A stretch of 63,598 nucleotides of DNA, counting the filler, from Collodictyon triciliatum (lineage: Eukaryota), in the NCBI GenBank assembly GCA_043381765.1. It is 6 parts of 6 records of this genome, joined end to end, with 100 filler letters (N's around TTAATTAATTAA, not from the genome) between each part and the next. Parts side by side here need not be neighbours in the genome. Positions count along the whole stretch, not along the records: positions 20,045 to 34,826 come from JBHJMP010000286.1; 5 more parts are not named here. One strand, written 5' to 3'. The position numbers and the translations under genes were made by a program. Positions 20,762 through 33,613 of the stretch are shown here, one piece after another (position 1 is the stretch's first letter; each line of letters begins with the position of its first letter). The notes under the pieces were generated by a model. That model was given only the letters and a program-made list of their open reading frames with translations, had not been told where the DNA came from and ran no database searches.

Positions 20762-23700
20762 ATGGAGCCGAACCTGGATCTCCCGGCCTACCTGGTGCTG
20801 GCCGAAATGCCTGAAGGACAGCTTCGTCTCTACGTCGATCGTTCTCCTCCGCTTCTGGCTCTGGAGACCACCGCTGATTCGCCGCTTTCTGCTCGCCATG
20901 TGAGGCACATCAAGAATCTGCTACTGTCCTCATCCTTCGCCATGGGCCCCGACTCGCAATGTGTGGCATTGGACACTTTAGACTTCTCCGATCCTGCGCT
21001 GGCCTTTCAGATCCATCCCTCAAGCGACAGTGAACTCACTCTGGAGATATCCCGTCGACTTCGCGGAGGTGGAGTGTTCCGCTCAAGGCCGTCTCGAGTC
21101 GAGACTGCAGCCCACTCTTCACTAGATTTGCCAGTGAGACAAGAGGTTTCAGAAGCAGCTCCCCGCCCGGGGACAAATTCGCCGCTTGCTCTGCCCGGCA
21201 TCCATGACAGCTTCCTTGTCTGTGGCATAAAGAATTCTGGTAACTCTGGCCTATTGGCCTACGTCCAGGAAAGCGCGGATATTGGCGTCTGGGACTTGTT
21301 CAAGAATCAGGTAAAAACCGTCCTGCACACCCATGCCAAACCTGTTTTGTCCATTTGCGCTGTTCCATCCAGCGCTCCGCATAATTTAATTGCCTCGCTT
21401 CATGTGGACGGCCGTGTTTGCCTGTGGGATATTGAGGCATCCTCATTGATGTATTCGTTTAACTGCTCGGCAAGTGCTTCTGGGATGATGGCAGTTGGAT
21501 CACCTCAGCACCCCAAGATTGTTTTTTCTGATGAGAGCGCTGCCTCCTCCCTATGGAGTTTTAAAATCCATGAAGGGAATATTGTTCCTGATGAAGTCCA
21601 GGATGGCCGCGCAGCCGAGAGAATTTTCTCGGAGACCCCCGTTCCGACACTCTCTGAGCATAAGGTGTGGTATTTACTCTCAACATTTTCCTTTTTCTAT
21701 TATTTTGTTTCTTTTCTTTTCTTTTCTTTTGCATCCCCACTTCTATATTCCTACTCACACATTCGTTGCCCATGAATGCGCAAGTAATGATTTTTTTCCT
21801 TTTAAAAGGCATTATTAGAATGGGCGAACTACTTCCTCGCAAAAATAGGAATTCGGATATCAAACCTATCGGAGGATTTACATGATGGTTTCTTCTTGAT
21901 ACTGCTCATCGAAACCGTGACTCAAAAGAGATTTGAGCAATACAGGCCCAGAATGGCGAGGTGAGTGCGCTGTTGATACTCTGCTATAGCCTTAAATATT
22001 ATGTAATCGTTTTTCTTCCCTGATGCTATGAATTAATCCACCCTTGGCCTTCATTAGCGACACTCCAATCGAGAATGAGGCATGGGTCGCCGAGAATCGA
22101 TCCATAATCTCAAGGTGGAGAAGCGAGCTCACTTCCGAGATAGACCACTGCAAGGATGTCTCTCATGCGGAGAATCCCCAAAACCTGGTCGAGGAAGGTT
22201 GCTCCTTTATATAACTTACTGTTTCTTGTATGCTAAGATATTTCTATCTATAAACCTGTCTTATATATCATTTTATGAAATTAACTTACGGATATAGAGC
22301 TCAATGCACCCTTTATTTATTATTTATTTATTTTGTCTGGTTCTTCTTGTCATAACGTGTATTCTTCATATTGCTATGTGCTCATAACCCAGATTTCGTG
22401 ATAAATACCTTATGGTCGCTGCTTTCACATGTTTGCAAATCTCCAAGAATATCGGTAAATAAATTATTCTGATTACCTGTAAATACTACAATGTTCCGAT
22501 GGACTCTATCTTTGATGTTGACGAGACATTTATATCCGAATACAGAGAAATCCCTTCGCCAACTTCAAATTGGCAGAAGAAATTTTCAGCTCGAACAACA
22601 TTCCTTTTCCTTACTCAGGTTTTATAGATGAATCCCAGTATAGACATATAAATATTTAATTCGTATCTATGACAGAAACAAGCGTTCAAAGTTTTTTGTC
22701 TTTTGCAAGAATAAAATAACAAAAAATGTTTGTCCAGATCTTCCAGTTCAAGAATGGGGAAACATTGTTTTGCTCCGCGCCTCAATGCTACTTGATAAGG
22801 CACTATTTGAATCATAATTACCAAGATATAATATTGCCATATAAAATAATATAAAGCTACAATATAGACCAAGTCTAGGATTCCTGATGAAAGCGCACAA
22901 ACAATCAAGTGGGTGCCTCCTCCTCAGAGATTCGAGACAAACACACCAATGCCTATCCAGGTGTATGACCAAGGCGTTCTGCGAATCTTTTTGTCGTCGA
23001 CCTTTCGGGATATGCAGAATGAAAGAGACCAATTTTTTCAACATGGGGTATCTCAGTATGTCCAATACTGAGTTTAAATTTAATTTTGCCACTCGTATGG
23101 GCTCTCGCATATTGTTTATCCCTATTGTTACCATTAGTTTGGTTACTTTTTTTTAATAAAAAATAAATAAATATAAGGCTCAAGGCTCTTGCAAAAGAAA
23201 AGGGAGTAGAGCTTGTTTTTATTGACCTAAGATGGGGTTTGACTGCTGAAGATAGCGGCGATGGATGGGTACTTGATTAATTGCATAAATTAGTCCAATG
23301 AGCTATACTTCTGAATAAAAAGGAATATGCTTTAAACAAAACAAAAAATGCATATGTAGGTTGTTATCCGCTGTTGTGAATCTATCGAAAAGTGTGCCTA
23401 TTTCGTATGCTTCTTAGGGGCCAGGTACGGCTGGGTTCCTGATGCCAGCAAACCAAATGAATGGCACCCGAAGACAAATAAGCAATATCCCTTCCTAAAC
23501 TCCATACCTGGCTTGAGTGTGACTGAATATGAGGTATCGCTGTTTAATCGCTTTCTTTCTTTTAATAAGCATGACATTCTATATAAACCTTAGGGTAAAT
23601 TAAGGAAGGTATATTGATATAGATAGCAAGATTAGGACTAACAAGTATCTCTAGATTCAATATGCAGCGCTCATTGACAAACCAGCTGCAAGTAGAGCTT

Positions 23701-32700: not shown

Positions 32701-33613
32701 AATATCGAATATTTCATCCGAGGAGAGCTTATATTTTCATGCAGCTCTCTTTGTGGGCCGCTGTTACGAAAATGGCTGGGGTGTAGAAAAGAATCTGGGT
32801 GATGCAGCAAATCATTACAAGAAGTTTGTGTGCATTAATGCGCAGCTAATTTGCGACGAGCTTATTCGCCTATGTCAAGAGCATACATCCGAGCCTATTG
32901 CAGTGTTGGAAGGAATGCTTGAAGACCGTGACTGGGAAGGAGCTTACAGATATCCTGAGTGTGTTTTTGGGCTGGGTCTTTGTCTTGAAAATGGTTGGGG
33001 CGTGGATGTGAATGTCTCCAAAGCGTACCATAAATATAGCGAGCTGGCTGAGATGGGATTCAGCAAAGGGTTCGACAGGCTTCAAGAACTTGTCAAACAG
33101 GGGTCTAGCGAAGCCTTTCAGGCTGTTGTAGAGCTGTCTGATGTCATCTTGGGGTCTAAGACTGGATTGCTAAAATCATCGAAGAACTATGACAGCGCTA
33201 ATCTTCCAAAAGTTGCCCTGCTTTTGAAGTCGTGCTATGACGAAGGCTTATGCGTAGAAAAGAACGACGCAATGGCCCTTAAATGGGGTTTGTTAGCTTC
33301 TTCAGATGAGGAGAAACCGGGCATCCTCGATTTACTAAAGGAACAGGCTGTCCAAGGGTCAAGCGATGCTACCGCTTGCTTAATCGACCTCGCTAGCTTG
33401 AGGGCAAAGGTCTCCCAATATGAAGACCAATCCAAGGCCAAAAAGCCCCTTATGCCAAATGCTGTCGAGTTGGTTGCCCAGTGTTACCAAAACGGATGGG
33501 GGGTCGAACAGGACATGAAGCAGGCTGGGGAATGGGCCAATCTGCTGCGTCCACCATCGGCCCCCAAACAACAAAACCAAGGAGGCAAAGGAGGAGACTG
33601 CACCATCTGCTAA
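20762..33613 (+). CDS. Giant NLR-like STAND protein: LRGG leader - WD40 - calponin homology - DUF4062 - NACHT-like (TEP1/NPHP3-type) NTPase - TPR - pentapeptide - WD40 - Sel1-like repeats - CaaX
   Basis: Exon 1 SRRLRGGGVFRS plus WD40. CH: ALLEWANYFL...ISNLSEDLHDGFFLILLIE and NTLWSLL. DUF4062: RIFLSSTFRDMQNERD, IDLRWG, LGARYGWVP, SVTEYE. Walker A AESGIGKS (24598-24621), Walker B FLIDAINQ (~25384-25407), GHPLFLRLVLEELRIFG. Kinesin-light-chain-type TPRs (GDQHPLMSTSLTNIG). The 4.6-kb last exon has pentapeptide, GH..WD and CY.NGWGV repeats and ends CTIC*. Not every central splice junction was resolved. Confidence 0.85.

What the first reader, a model, noticed from the sequence alone, without database searches (positions are those of the whole stretch)
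20762..33613. NLR-like STAND NTPase with three stacked sensor arrays and a DUF4062 effector
STAND immune receptors usually carry one repeat type. Here TPR, WD40 and Sel1-like arrays follow a single NACHT-like domain with intact-looking Walker motifs, preceded by DUF4062 (TIR-like/deoxyribohydrolase-like fold found with STAND NTPases). The whole gene lies within one linker-bounded piece. It is a candidate protist innate-immune or allorecognition receptor.
Basis: partly seen in the sequence, partly recalled or inferred. Interest (0 to 1): 0.7.

Follow-up and report, generated by a model that had tools for sequence, protein, structure and literature searches.

The report
Giant multi-repeat NADase-type NLR-like gene
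This is a real, expressed gene of about 3,000 codons from a protist, an NLR-like switch protein with a TIR-like NAD-destroying head and an unusually long tail made of four different repeat types; the protein family was described in 2026, so what is new is this particular combination of parts.

Summary
On the + strand, from the ATG at 20762 to the stop at 33611-33613, I could build one open reading frame of 31 exons (3011 aa; 29 GT-AG introns and 1 GC-AG intron).

Domain order:
- a WD40-like N-terminal exon
- a CH domain
- DUF4062 (also named NIR or TeTIR; a TIR-like NADase)
- a NACHT-class NTPase
- 42-residue TPRs
- pentapeptide repeats
- WD40
- 11 Sel1-like units

Evidence for one gene:
- Spliced RNA contigs from three public runs support 13 of 30 introns. 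They bridge the 100-N gap at 25165-25264.
- A 2619-aa Diphylleia rotans transcript protein (P0127) is colinear with residues 295-2176, from the CH domain to the WD40 array (42% identity). It ends in a single Sel1 repeat.
- No RNA contig joins exon 1 to exon 2 or exon 30 to exon 31, and no contig crosses the other gap.

All eight TEP1 residues that the 2026 preprints name as functional are conserved here, including the catalytic Glu.

The most likely mechanism is a ligand-gated, oligomerising NADase. This is inferred, and an immune role is untested.

Novelty: a new variant of a family described in 2026. Interest is moderate.

The scan had noted the same NADase head once before, on bacterial DNA (e1-3730303).

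The parts
20762..33613 (+). Whole coding span of the 31-exon model (3011 aa), from the ATG to the stop at 33611-33613
   Evidence: the CDS length is divisible by 3 and has a single terminal stop. There are 29 GT-AG introns and one GC-AG intron.
20762..21664 (+). Exon 1 (301 aa): a low-complexity N-terminus followed by 2-3 WD40-like blades that copy the first blades of the gene's own C-terminal propeller
   Evidence: Weak WD40-propeller Pfam hits (E 1e-7, below the cut-offs). 33% identity over 93 aa to model residues about 1755-1845, pairwise E 2e-13. RNA contigs cover 20725-21227, but with 13 differences in 477 nt, and they are not joined to later exons. The link to exon 2 rests only on splice phase (AAG|GTGTGG to TTTTAAAAG|G, phase 0/0).
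21809..22454 (+). CH (calponin homology) domain spread over exons 2-4 (21809-21960, 22058-22197, 22393-22454)
   Evidence: PF00307, E 4.5e-7, 30.5 bits against a cut-off of 26, on exon 2. Splice sites were read directly. Colinear with P0127 residues 189-368.
22546..22799 (+). Linker exons 5 and 6 (22546-22618, 22738-22799). Exon 6 needs a GC-AG intron (22800-22867).
   Evidence: No RNA cover. Several canonical splice paths are possible. The path chosen is the one that keeps a stretch conserved in P0127.
22868..24006 (+). DUF4062 / NIR / TeTIR NADase-type domain and its C-terminal extension: exons 7-11 (22868-23055, 23178-23268, 23360-23533, 23655-23789, 23869-24006)
   Evidence: Pfam DUF4062. 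Alignments to the TEP1 chain 11gz_A. Intron 23534-23654 is seen in run X5. 52-60% identity to Diphylleia paralogues.
24107..24206 (.). 100-N gap inside intron 11 (24007-24312), flanked by CTTTT-type microsatellite
   Evidence: No contig crosses it. P0127 shows nothing missing at this point; the window protein has 10 extra residues there.
24313..26720 (+). NACHT-class STAND NTPase with helical/winged-helix part: exons 12-21. Walker A GIGKS is in 24550-24728, Walker B in 25368-25521, and the GHPLFLRL motif in 25896-26054.
   Evidence: Single-exon Pfam hits are weak (NACHT E 0.016; NPHP3_N, nSTAND1 and AAA_16 at 0.02-0.05). 59% identity to P0136, which passes the cut-offs for NACHT, nSTAND1 and NPHP3_N. 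Introns 12-15 are joined by X2 record 8 and X1 record 2.
25165..25264 (.). 100-N gap inside intron 15 (25054-25367)
   Evidence: X1 record 2 and X2 record 8 run from 25053 straight on to 25368 (table 8).
26855..29584 (+). Kinesin-light-chain-type TPR region: exons 22-30 plus the first ~185 codons of exon 31. Six consecutive exons of 126/123/126/126/126/126 nt, all in phase 2, each encode one 42-residue unit.
   Evidence: Each of the six exons hits TPR_12 at the same profile register, 19-21 to 55-59 (E 3.5e-8 to 0.028). Introns 21-24, 26 and 27 are seen as joints. Introns 25 and 28 are seen as loose ends that match the next exon uniquely. The exon 30/31 junction was read from the sequence: AG|GTATGT at 28858, TATAG|G with the exon starting at 29026, frame kept.
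29585..29770 (+). Pentapeptide repeats
   Evidence: PF00805, E 2e-6, 27.7 bits against a cut-off of 20.2. 43% identity to P0127 residues 1555-1626.
29795..31105 (+). WD40 array: about one propeller, with degenerate later blades
   Evidence: PF00400, E 5e-19, 3 stretches. Colinear with the first propeller of P0127 up to model residue 2176.
31145..33610 (+). Eleven Sel1-like units of 71-85 aa (core C-[YFL]-x-N-G-W-G), ending in ...CTIC
   Evidence: PF08238, E 7.3e-29 for the whole exon. E 4e-10 and 1.8e-8 on two sub-stretches. Unit alignment gives a mean pairwise identity of 24%. No DNA-level tandem repeat. Atlas look-alikes are Sel1 clusters, score 0.90.

Best explanation
This is one protein-coding gene of a protist. 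Its nearest relatives are all in the collodictyonid Diphylleia rotans. It encodes a protein of about 3000 aa belonging to the DUF4062 (NIR/TeTIR)-NACHT family of NLR-like STAND proteins.

**Shown**
- The domain order: CH, TeTIR, NACHT-class NTPase, 42-residue TPRs, pentapeptide repeats, WD40, then 11 Sel1-like units.
- One open frame across 31 exons.
- Expression and splicing at 13 of 30 introns.
- A transcript-derived homologue with the same order of parts.
- Conservation of every TEP1 residue that the preprints name as functional.

**Inferred mechanism**
1. At rest, the long repeat tail holds the NTPase closed.
2. Binding of one or more ligands to the repeat surfaces lets the NACHT module exchange nucleotide and oligomerise.
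3. Oligomerisation brings the TeTIR heads together and switches on NAD+ hydrolysis to ADP-ribose and nicotinamide.
4. The result is NAD+ depletion, leading to arrest or death of the cell, or to a signal.

The CH domain would place the protein on the cytoskeleton. An immune or non-self-sensing role is the most likely use, but it is not tested.
For: **Architecture and frame**
- Pfam; 31 exons, 3011 aa, one stop.

**RNA**
- One search lists 10 GT..AG joints.
- It also shows one further junction in the pieces table that bridges the N gap.
- Runs X1, X2 and X5 were mapped to exact GT-AG introns.
- Two loose ends match the next exon uniquely.
- Together this is 13 of 30 introns.

**Homology**
- P0127, a Diphylleia rotans Trinity transcript protein of 2619 aa, aligns in one piece to model residues 295-2176: 42% identity, 1494 bits.
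- That alignment covers CH, linker, TeTIR, NTPase, TPR, pentapeptide and WD40.
- P0127's C-terminal tail is a single Sel1 repeat (E 4.3e-6).
- P0124 is colinear over TeTIR-NTPase-TPR (39% identity over 907 aa).

**Catalytic head**
- The alignments to chain 11gz_A give one consistent offset of 893.
- That offset places F902, R908, R914, R942, W943, C959, R976 and E1008 of human TEP1 on identical residues here.
- The motifs holding them are RIFLSSTFRDMQNERD, IDLRWG, CCESIE, GARYG and SVTEYE.
- E1008, R908 and R976 are reported as needed for NADase activity in 10.64898/2026.05.01.722283 (section 11 read). Candidate residues and the RWG loop come from 10.64898/2026.09.21.753143 (section 5 and passages read).

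**NTPase class**
- The nearest relative, P0136 (59% identical), passes the Pfam cut-offs for NACHT (27.5), nSTAND1 (29.6) and NPHP3_N (27.5).

**Family behaviour**
- Of the 18 top representatives I looked up, 10 are distinct D. rotans Trinity genes; their tails differ in the four I compared.
- P0124 adds an eleventh Trinity gene whose species was not shown.
- Le Mouellic et al. (section 8 read) state that most eukaryotic NIR proteins are NLR-like, with NIR at the N-terminus.
Against: **Transcript continuity**
- No contig joins exon 1 to exon 2, exons 2-9 to each other, 10-12, 16-21 or 30-31. The contigs are 156-554 nt, so one transcript is not shown.
- The tool marks X1 and X2 as RNA only by guess. 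My reading of them as cDNA rests on the GT-AG joints.

**The 5' end**
- The exon 1 contigs differ from the window at 13 of 477 positions. Of the 12 positions listed, 7 fall on the first or second codon position.
- Most other exon contigs have no differences and one has 2. The exon 1 contigs may therefore come from a paralogue.
- Relatives such as P0124 start about 40 aa before the TeTIR domain, with no CH domain.
- One intron must be GC-AG, or the assembly has an error there.

**Activity**
- Full-length human NWD1, NWD2 and NPHP3 showed no NADase activity in vitro (10.64898/2026.05.01.722283, section 11). Conserved residues therefore do not guarantee activity.
- Walker B lacks the second acidic residue.

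**Other limits**
- No ligand, partner or phenotype is known.
- The AlphaFold model of the Sel1 part is poor (pLDDT 49.5).
Confidence: 0.6

Rival explanations
1. There are two genes at the 5' end. Either exon 1 alone, or exon 1 plus the CH exons, belongs to a separate upstream gene. The NLR-like gene would then start at the ATG about 27 codons into exon 7 (MPIQVYDQGVLRIF...).
For: - Relatives P0124, P0125, P0129 and others begin a few dozen residues before the TeTIR motif.
- No RNA contig covers 21228-23398.
- If exon 4 is read through, a stop follows after 5 codons, at 22470.
- The exon 1 contigs carry 13 differences in 477 nt, whereas other exons carry 0-2.
- The linker needs a GC-AG intron.
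Against: - P0127 is a transcript-derived protein. It carries CH, the linker and TeTIR in one chain, colinear with the window, and the linker exon is conserved.
- The CH exon opens right after a stop and has no ATG of its own, so it needs an upstream coding exon. Exon 1 lies 144 nt away on the same strand with matching phase.
- The blades in exon 1 copy the gene's own C-terminal WD40 blades.
Confidence: 0.2
2. It is a housekeeping cytoskeletal or ciliary scaffold of the NPHP3 / TTC41 / NWD1 kind. The NTPase and repeats organise a complex, and the TeTIR head is silent or only regulatory. On this reading it is not an immune receptor.
For: - The TPRs are of the kinesin-light-chain / NPHP3 type (KLC1, E 2e-18; TPR_NPHP3 hits).
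- A CH domain is present.
- The organism's nearest relatives are flagellates.
- Full-length NWD1, NWD2 and NPHP3 were inactive as NADases (10.64898/2026.05.01.722283, section 11).
Against: - NPHP3 lacks the catalytic Glu (10.64898/2026.09.21.753143, section 5). This protein keeps the Glu and all seven other named residues.
- The family has at least 10 diverged paralogues in D. rotans. Tails compared in four of them differ, which suits a diversifying sensor family more than a single-copy scaffold.
Confidence: 0.2
3. It is an assembly chimera or a decaying pseudogene, and the long frame is accidental.
For: - The scaffold has two 100-N gaps and many microsatellite introns.
- One splice site is non-canonical.
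- The later WD40 blades are degenerate.
Against: - 9036 coding bases stay open across 31 exons.
- Spliced RNA is found in three runs, with no differences in most pieces.
- The protein is colinear with P0127 over 1880 residues with no frame breaks.
- One gap is bridged by RNA.
Confidence: 0.03

Closest known systems
Diphylleia rotans transcript protein P0127 (EukProt EP00002, TRINITY_DN6756; unnamed, uncharacterised)
   Same: It has the same order of parts: CH, linker, DUF4062, NACHT-class NTPase, 42-residue TPRs, pentapeptide, WD40 and a C-terminal Sel1 repeat. Identity is 42% over 1916 aligned columns, and about 59% in the TeTIR and NTPase parts.
   Different: - P0127 has 14 significant WD40 stretches by Pfam and a single Sel1 repeat.
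- The window gene has about one degenerate propeller and 11 Sel1-like units.
- The N-terminus of P0127 (residues 1-181) looks by eye like a second CH-type region, not tested, rather than a WD40-like exon.
TTC41 / NPHP3 branch of the TeTIR (NIR, DUF4062)-NACHT family (Hornebeck et al. 10.64898/2026.09.21.753143; Le Mouellic et al. 10.64898/2026.09.04.749371; Osinski et al. 10.64898/2026.05.01.722283)
   Same: The TeTIR domain sits directly upstream of a NACHT-type ATPase, followed by kinesin-light-chain-type TPRs. Relatives hit NPHP3_N and TPR_NPHP3.
   Different: - The preprints describe tails of either WD40 or TPR. Here TPR, pentapeptide, WD40 and Sel1 follow one another.
- A CH domain lies upstream.
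- NPHP3 lacks the catalytic Glu; this protein has it.
- Human TTC41 is a pseudogene.
Human TEP1 TeTIR domain (PDB 11gz_A), an active NADase
   Same: F902, R908, R914, R942, W943 (the RWG loop), C959, R976 and E1008 all fall on identical residues. The domain is followed by NACHT and WD40.
   Different: TEP1 has TROVE and vWA domains upstream, no TPR, pentapeptide or Sel1 repeats, and works inside the vault particle. Activity of the window protein is untested.
Bacterial NIR-Avs2 (PsAvs2) and other NIR/DUF4062 defence proteins (Swarozyc, Vulcan, Vesta, Evangelion)
   Same: The logic is the same: an N-terminal NADase head, a STAND NTPase and a C-terminal repeat sensor. The catalytic Glu is required (10.64898/2026.09.04.749371, section 5).
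   Different: Those are prokaryotic, intron-less, much smaller proteins with a single sensor domain and a known trigger (phage terminase or portal). No trigger is known here.

Membership tests
DUF4062 / NIR / TeTIR (PF13271) | Match to the family profile above the curated cut-off | tested here: met
   Exon 23360-23533 alone scores 26.1 bits against a cut-off of 24.7 (E 9.6e-6). Exon 22868-23055 scores 21.1 bits, below the cut-off. PDB chain 11gz_A (TEP1) is the only hit for one exon and the best hit for two others.
DUF4062 / NIR / TeTIR (PF13271) | Catalytic glutamate (TEP1 E1008) and the residues named as functional (R908, R976, R942/W943 of the RWG loop, F902, R914, C959) | tested here: met
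   The three exon alignments share one offset (chain index + 893), and all eight positions are identical in the window protein. The residue list comes from the preprints (sections and passages read).
DUF4062 / NIR / TeTIR (PF13271) | Sits directly upstream of a NACHT-type ATPase | tested here: met
   Exons 7-11 are followed by exons 12-21. The arrangement is colinear with P0124 and P0127.
DUF4062 / NIR / TeTIR (PF13271) | NAD+ hydrolysis to ADP-ribose and nicotinamide | not testable with these tools
   This needs an enzyme assay. Full-length NWD1, NWD2 and NPHP3 were inactive in vitro (10.64898/2026.05.01.722283, section 11).
NACHT (PF05729) / STAND NTPase | Profile match above the curated cut-off | tested here: inconclusive
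- The best single-exon hits are NACHT at E 0.016 and NPHP3_N, nSTAND1 and AAA_16 at 0.02-0.05.
- The 59%-identical relative P0136 passes NACHT (27.5 against 26.7), nSTAND1 (29.6 against 27.1) and NPHP3_N (27.5 against 24.8). P0133 scores 35.4 for NACHT.
NACHT (PF05729) / STAND NTPase | Walker A, Walker B Asp, and a GxP-type motif before the winged helix | tested here: met
   The motifs are AESGIGKS, VVFLIDAINQ and GHPLFLRL. Walker B has N-Q where many NACHTs have D-E (the D-E form is recalled). 65 of the 94 relatives with a detectable motif (of 150 scanned) share D[AG]xNQ.
TPR_12 (PF13424), kinesin-light-chain type | Profile match above the cut-off; 42-residue periodicity | tested here: met
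   Exon 28170-28295 scores 34.0 bits against a cut-off of 30.1. Six exons hit the same profile register. The relative P0124 hits KLC1 structures at E 2e-18.
Pentapeptide repeats (PF00805) | Profile match above the cut-off | tested here: met
   27.7 bits against a cut-off of 20.2 (E 2e-6), at P0001 residues 235-272.
WD40 (PF00400) | Profile match above the cut-off; enough blades for a closed propeller | tested here: inconclusive
   The profile criterion is met: 68.3 bits and 3 significant repeats. Whether the degenerate later blades close a seven-bladed propeller was not modelled.
Sel1-like repeats (PF08238) | Profile match above the cut-off; alpha-solenoid of helical hairpins | tested here: met
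   - Sequence level: 99.6 bits for the exon, but no single stretch passes alone. Sub-stretches score 40.3 and 35.1 bits.
- There are eleven units with a C-[YFL]-x-N-G-W-G core.
- Fold: the model is all-helical but its pLDDT is 49.5, so the fold itself is not confirmed.
CH domain (PF00307) | Profile match above the cut-off | tested here: met
   30.5 bits against a cut-off of 26 on exon 2, covering the first half of the profile. The second half was inferred by eye and from colinearity with P0127.
Canonical animal or plant NLR (NACHT or NB-ARC plus LRR) | C-terminal leucine-rich repeats | tested here: not met
   No LRR family appears among the Pfam hits shown for the last exon (best 25 of 28). 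The term 'NLR-like' applies only in the sense of a tripartite STAND protein.

The most novel reading that the evidence does not exclude
The gene is a multi-input immune integrator peculiar to collodictyonid protists. One NADase-armed STAND switch reads four chemically different repeat surfaces (TPR, pentapeptide beta-helix, WD40, Sel1) in series. The CH domain anchors it to the cytoskeleton, and the C-terminal CTIC may anchor it to membranes by prenylation. The lineage retunes specificity by trading repeat numbers between arrays (about 2 propellers plus 1 Sel1 in D. rotans, against about 1 propeller plus 11 Sel1 here) and by shuffling TPR exons, each of which is one exon per repeat in a symmetric phase.
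Probability: 0.15. Interest if true: 0.7.

Novelty: new variant of a known kind. Interest (0 to 1): 0.45.

Why it matters
DUF4062 was shown only in 2026 to be a TIR-like NADase shared by bacterial anti-phage systems and human TEP1. The preprints report thousands of eukaryotic NLR-like carriers, and none of them has a known trigger or role.

This locus adds three things:
- a genomic, intron-resolved and expressed example from CRuMs, a deep and little-studied eukaryotic branch;
- an intact catalytic set;
- an architecture the preprints do not describe, namely TPR and WD40 together, plus pentapeptide and Sel1 arrays and a CH domain.

Comparing it with its D. rotans homologue shows the sensor tail changing by repeat gain and loss while the head and switch stay about 59% identical. 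That pattern is expected of a receptor under changing selection. It gives a concrete pair of proteins for asking what such tails recognise.

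Tried and rejected
- **Own genome.** None is held, so I could not take a census of paralogues in this organism.
- **Homologue searches with the last exon.** They returned only generic WD40 proteins (at most 38% identity over about 10% of the query). These say nothing about orthologues.
- **Read laying on the whole piece.** I then laid 20100-28320, so the exon 30/31 junction and the last exon were never laid.
- **Small word shares of the metatranscriptomes X3, X4, X6 and X7.** The two pieces from X3 are 18 nt long and are spurious.
- **Parts of the stretch without contig cover** (21228-23398, 23759-24348, 25511-26658). This is no evidence of absence.
- **First automatic exon chaining.** It over-fitted, producing 5-15 nt exons and the wrong frame for the DUF4062 exon. 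I replaced it with curation against RNA joints and homologues.
- **First curated model.** It had a wrong acceptor at 22878, corrected.
- **X1 loose end at 25510.** I first took it for a splice junction. It looks instead like the reverse complement of a SMART-type template-switch oligo (recalled, not tested). I dropped it as a junction.
- **AlphaFold2 of the Sel1 part without an alignment.** pLDDT was 49.5, so I ran no fold search on it.
- **Paralogues elsewhere in the window.** tblastn of the model against the other pieces found none (0 of 24 hits lie outside the piece).
- **Literature.** The search 'Diphylleia' + 'NACHT' gave one unrelated paper. The search 'STAND' + 'NACHT' + 'Sel1' + 'pentapeptide' gave two papers. 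In the one whose passages I read, none of the four places holding 'Sel1', 'pentapeptide' or 'supersecondary' describes this architecture; of the other I saw only the listing.
- **Earlier scan notes.** There are none for this genome.

Full report
**What the window is.** The window consists of eukaryotic scaffold pieces joined by artificial N44-TTAATTAATTAA-N44 linkers. The finding lies in the piece 20045-34826. That piece contains two 100-N scaffold gaps, at 24107-24206 and 25165-25264. No whole genome is held for the window, and the scan has no earlier notes on it.

**Checking the observation.** Pfam scans of the + strand ORF pieces gave:
- DUF4062 on two exons (E 9.6e-6 and 3.8e-4);
- a CH domain on 21806-21964 (E 4.5e-7);
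- weak WD40-propeller hits on the first exon.

In the single 1576-codon ORF 28883-33613, the same scan gave pentapeptide repeats (E 2e-6), WD40 (E 5e-19) and Sel1 (E 7.3e-29).

Six small exons each match TPR_12. The Walker A exon gives weak hits to AAA_22, AAA_16, NPHP3_N and nSTAND1. The Walker B exon gives a weak NACHT hit (E 0.016).

A CH domain, pentapeptide repeats and an N-terminal WD40-like exon are there as well.

**RNA evidence.**
- A search of public runs with the last exon found two runs of one study holding 62% and 21% of its sampled words, and freshwater metatranscriptomes holding 5-7%.
- X1, X2 and X5 gave short contigs (156-554 nt) that skip GT..AG intervals. There are ten listed joints. 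The pieces table shows one more, 25053 to 25368, which bridges the second N gap.
- I mapped these joints to exact introns.
- Two loose ends match the start of the next exon uniquely.
- In all, 13 of the 30 introns in my model have RNA support. Overlapping contigs chain exons 12-16 and 21-29.
- Nothing covers 21228-23398, 23759-24348 or 25511-26658, and no contig reaches the last exon.
- The exon 1 contigs differ from the window at 13 of 477 positions. Of the 12 positions listed, 7 are at the first or second codon position. Most other pieces have no differences and one has 2. The exon 1 contigs may therefore come from a paralogue or a divergent allele.
- The tool labels X1 and X2 as RNA only by guess. 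The GT-AG joints are my reason for reading them as cDNA.

**Gene model.**
- An automatic exon chain over-fitted, so I curated the model from the sequence, the joints and homologues.
- The final model has 31 exons, 9036 coding bases and 3011 aa, with one terminal stop.
- It has 29 GT-AG introns and one GC-AG intron (22800-22867).
- The junction into the last exon is AG|GTATGT at 28858 and TATAG|G with the exon starting at 29026. It keeps the frame and runs through a TPR unit.
- The first N gap lies in an intron made of CTTTT microsatellite. The flanking exons are both in phase 0.
- Six consecutive TPR exons are 126, 123, 126, 126, 126 and 126 nt long, all in phase 2. Each hits the TPR_12 profile at the same register, so one exon encodes one 42-residue repeat.
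- The last 4.6 kb has no intron, whereas the first 8.3 kb has 30.

**Relatives.**
- A search with the DUF4062 exon found one close protein, P0124 (67% identity over that exon; an EukProt Trinity ORF). The model aligns to it colinearly from just before the DUF4062 motif through the TPRs (39% identity over 907 aa). This validates the exons that had no RNA cover.
- An exhaustive search with P0124 gave 66,235 proteins at E <= 1e-3 and 4,039 at E <= 1e-30. The first number is inflated by TPRs.
- Among the best 150, P0127 (2619 aa) aligns in one piece to model residues 295-2176 (42% identity, 1494 bits). That stretch covers CH, linker, DUF4062, NTPase, TPR, pentapeptide and WD40.
- P0127 is a Trinity transcript protein of Diphylleia rotans, which belongs to Collodictyonidae in CRuMs.
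- Its linker supports an exon (22738-22799) that I had missed. That exon forces the GC-AG intron.
- P0127's last 30 residues form a single Sel1 repeat (E 4.3e-6). The window gene has eleven Sel1-like units of 71-85 aa, with a mean pairwise identity of 24% and no DNA-level tandem repeat.
- With blastp of the separate parts against the 150 relatives, the TeTIR part hits 107, the NTPase part 110 and the TPR part 149. The CH, pentapeptide and WD40 parts hit only P0127. The Sel1 part hits none.
- Of the 18 top representatives I looked up, 10 are distinct D. rotans Trinity genes. P0124 is an eleventh Trinity gene from EukProt whose species was not shown. The other eight are metagenome proteins from JGI/IMG (one also in NCBI), ENA or Logan, plus one Mallomonas protein.
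- The window's own protein is not among the 150. Its organism is therefore probably a collodictyonid, but that is not established.

**The head domain.**
- Three 2026 preprints show that DUF4062 is a TIR-like NADase: 10.64898/2026.05.01.722283, 10.64898/2026.09.04.749371 and 10.64898/2026.09.21.753143. They name it NIR or TeTIR. I read the abstracts, the sections cited in the other fields, and searched passages.
- They report that it arms bacterial defence systems, that human TEP1 is active through E1008, and that most eukaryotic carriers are NLR-like proteins with the domain directly before a NACHT.
- They report tails of either WD40 or TPR repeats.
- Each of three window exons aligns to the TEP1 crystal chain 11gz_A with the same offset of 893.
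- That offset puts F902, R908, R914, R942, W943, C959, R976 and E1008 on identical residues in the window protein.
- The catalytic Glu is the second Glu of SVTEYE, encoded by the last codon of exon 9.

**The switch.**
- The window's NTPase cannot be scanned whole, because it is split over ten exons.
- Its 59%-identical relative P0136 passes the Pfam cut-offs for NACHT, nSTAND1 and NPHP3_N. P0133 passes NACHT at 35.4 bits.
- Walker A is intact and Walker B keeps its Asp. The D-A-I-N-Q form is the commonest in the clade (65 of 94 detectable motifs among the 150 relatives).

**The 5' end.**
- The CH exon opens directly after a stop and has no ATG, so it needs an upstream coding exon. Exon 1 is 144 nt away with a matching phase.
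- The blades in exon 1 are 33% identical over 93 aa to the first blades of the gene's own C-terminal WD40 array. This points to an internal duplication.
- Against this, paralogues such as P0124 start just before the TeTIR domain, and no RNA joins these exons.
- I put about 0.2 on a split at the 5' end.

**Mechanism.** By analogy with NIR-Avs2 and with concentration-dependent activation of the TEP1 head (preprints), the likely working is as follows:
1. The repeat tail holds the NACHT closed.
2. Ligand binding allows oligomerisation.
3. The clustered heads hydrolyse NAD+.

Only the parts list and the conserved residues are shown here. Activity, trigger and role are inferred. Full-length NWD1, NWD2 and NPHP3 were inactive in vitro, which is a real caution.

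**Structure.** A single-sequence AlphaFold2 model of the Sel1 part is all-helical but poor (pLDDT 49.5), so I ran no fold search. Atlas look-alikes are Sel1 clusters at a score of 0.90, which is only a lead.

**Novelty.**
- The family and its enzymology are in print as 2026 preprints.
- Stacked repeat types on one STAND occur in bacteria: TPR with WD40 in P0038 and P0090, and pentapeptide with WD40 in Nostoc proteins.
- What is new is this eukaryotic combination, CH-TeTIR-NACHT-TPR-pentapeptide-WD40-Sel1 x 11, together with its exon design and the repeat trading seen against the D. rotans homologue.
- My two literature searches for this combination listed three papers; I read passages of one, which do not describe it.
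- Table S5 of Le Mouellic et al. could not be read and may list the D. rotans proteins.

**Verdict.** The gene is real and expressed. It is a new variant of a known kind, of moderate interest (0.45).

Noticed in passing
window 4201-10263 (+), in another linker-bounded piece: A single 2020-codon ORF fuses a very long LRR array (LRR_8, E 5e-83, 11 stretches) to a polycystin domain and a PKD-type cation channel (PF20519, E 1e-17; PF08016, E 2.9e-20). This would be an LRR-gated polycystin channel candidate.
   Followed up: partly
window 10709-11644 (+): A 311-codon ORF with a SPRY domain (E 4.1e-16), just downstream of the LRR-polycystin ORF.
   Followed up: partly
window 27473-28857: Six consecutive exons of 126/123/126/126/126/126 nt, all in phase 2, each encode one 42-residue TPR unit in the same profile register. 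This design would allow repeats to be added, lost or skipped without a frame shift.
   Followed up: yes
window 20762-29025 versus 29026-33613: There are 30 introns in the first 8.3 kb of the gene and none in the last 4.6 kb, which encodes the pentapeptide, WD40 and Sel1 arrays.
   Followed up: no
window 21240-21430 versus 30000-30280: The WD40-like blades of exon 1 are a diverged copy (33% identity over 93 aa) of the first blades of the gene's own C-terminal WD40 array.
   Followed up: partly
window 20725-21227: RNA contigs of X1 and X2 share the same 12 listed differences from the assembly here, mostly at non-synonymous codon positions. Most contigs over other exons are identical to the window and one has 2 differences. 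This suggests a paralogue, an allele or a hypervariable stretch.
   Followed up: partly
window 22800-22867: The intron must be GC-AG (AAG|GCACTA) if the homology-supported exon 22738-22799 is used. There is no GT anywhere between 22770 and 22867, so this could also be an assembly error.
   Followed up: partly
window 33599-33610: The protein ends in ...GGDCTIC, which is CaaX-like and preceded by a Lys/Gly-rich stretch. It is a possible prenylation signal. P0127 does not end this way.
   Followed up: no
window 24010-24300, 25058-25164, 28325-28425, 28925-29020: Several introns of this gene are filled with long microsatellites (CTTTT-type, poly-T, ATT x ~33, TATTTTT-type). Both scaffold gaps sit in such tracts.
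   Followed up: no
window 25505-25510: An X1 contig ends here in letters that look like the reverse complement of a SMART-type template-switch oligo (recalled). This fits cDNA made by template switching and a strand-invasion artefact, not a splice site.
   Followed up: no
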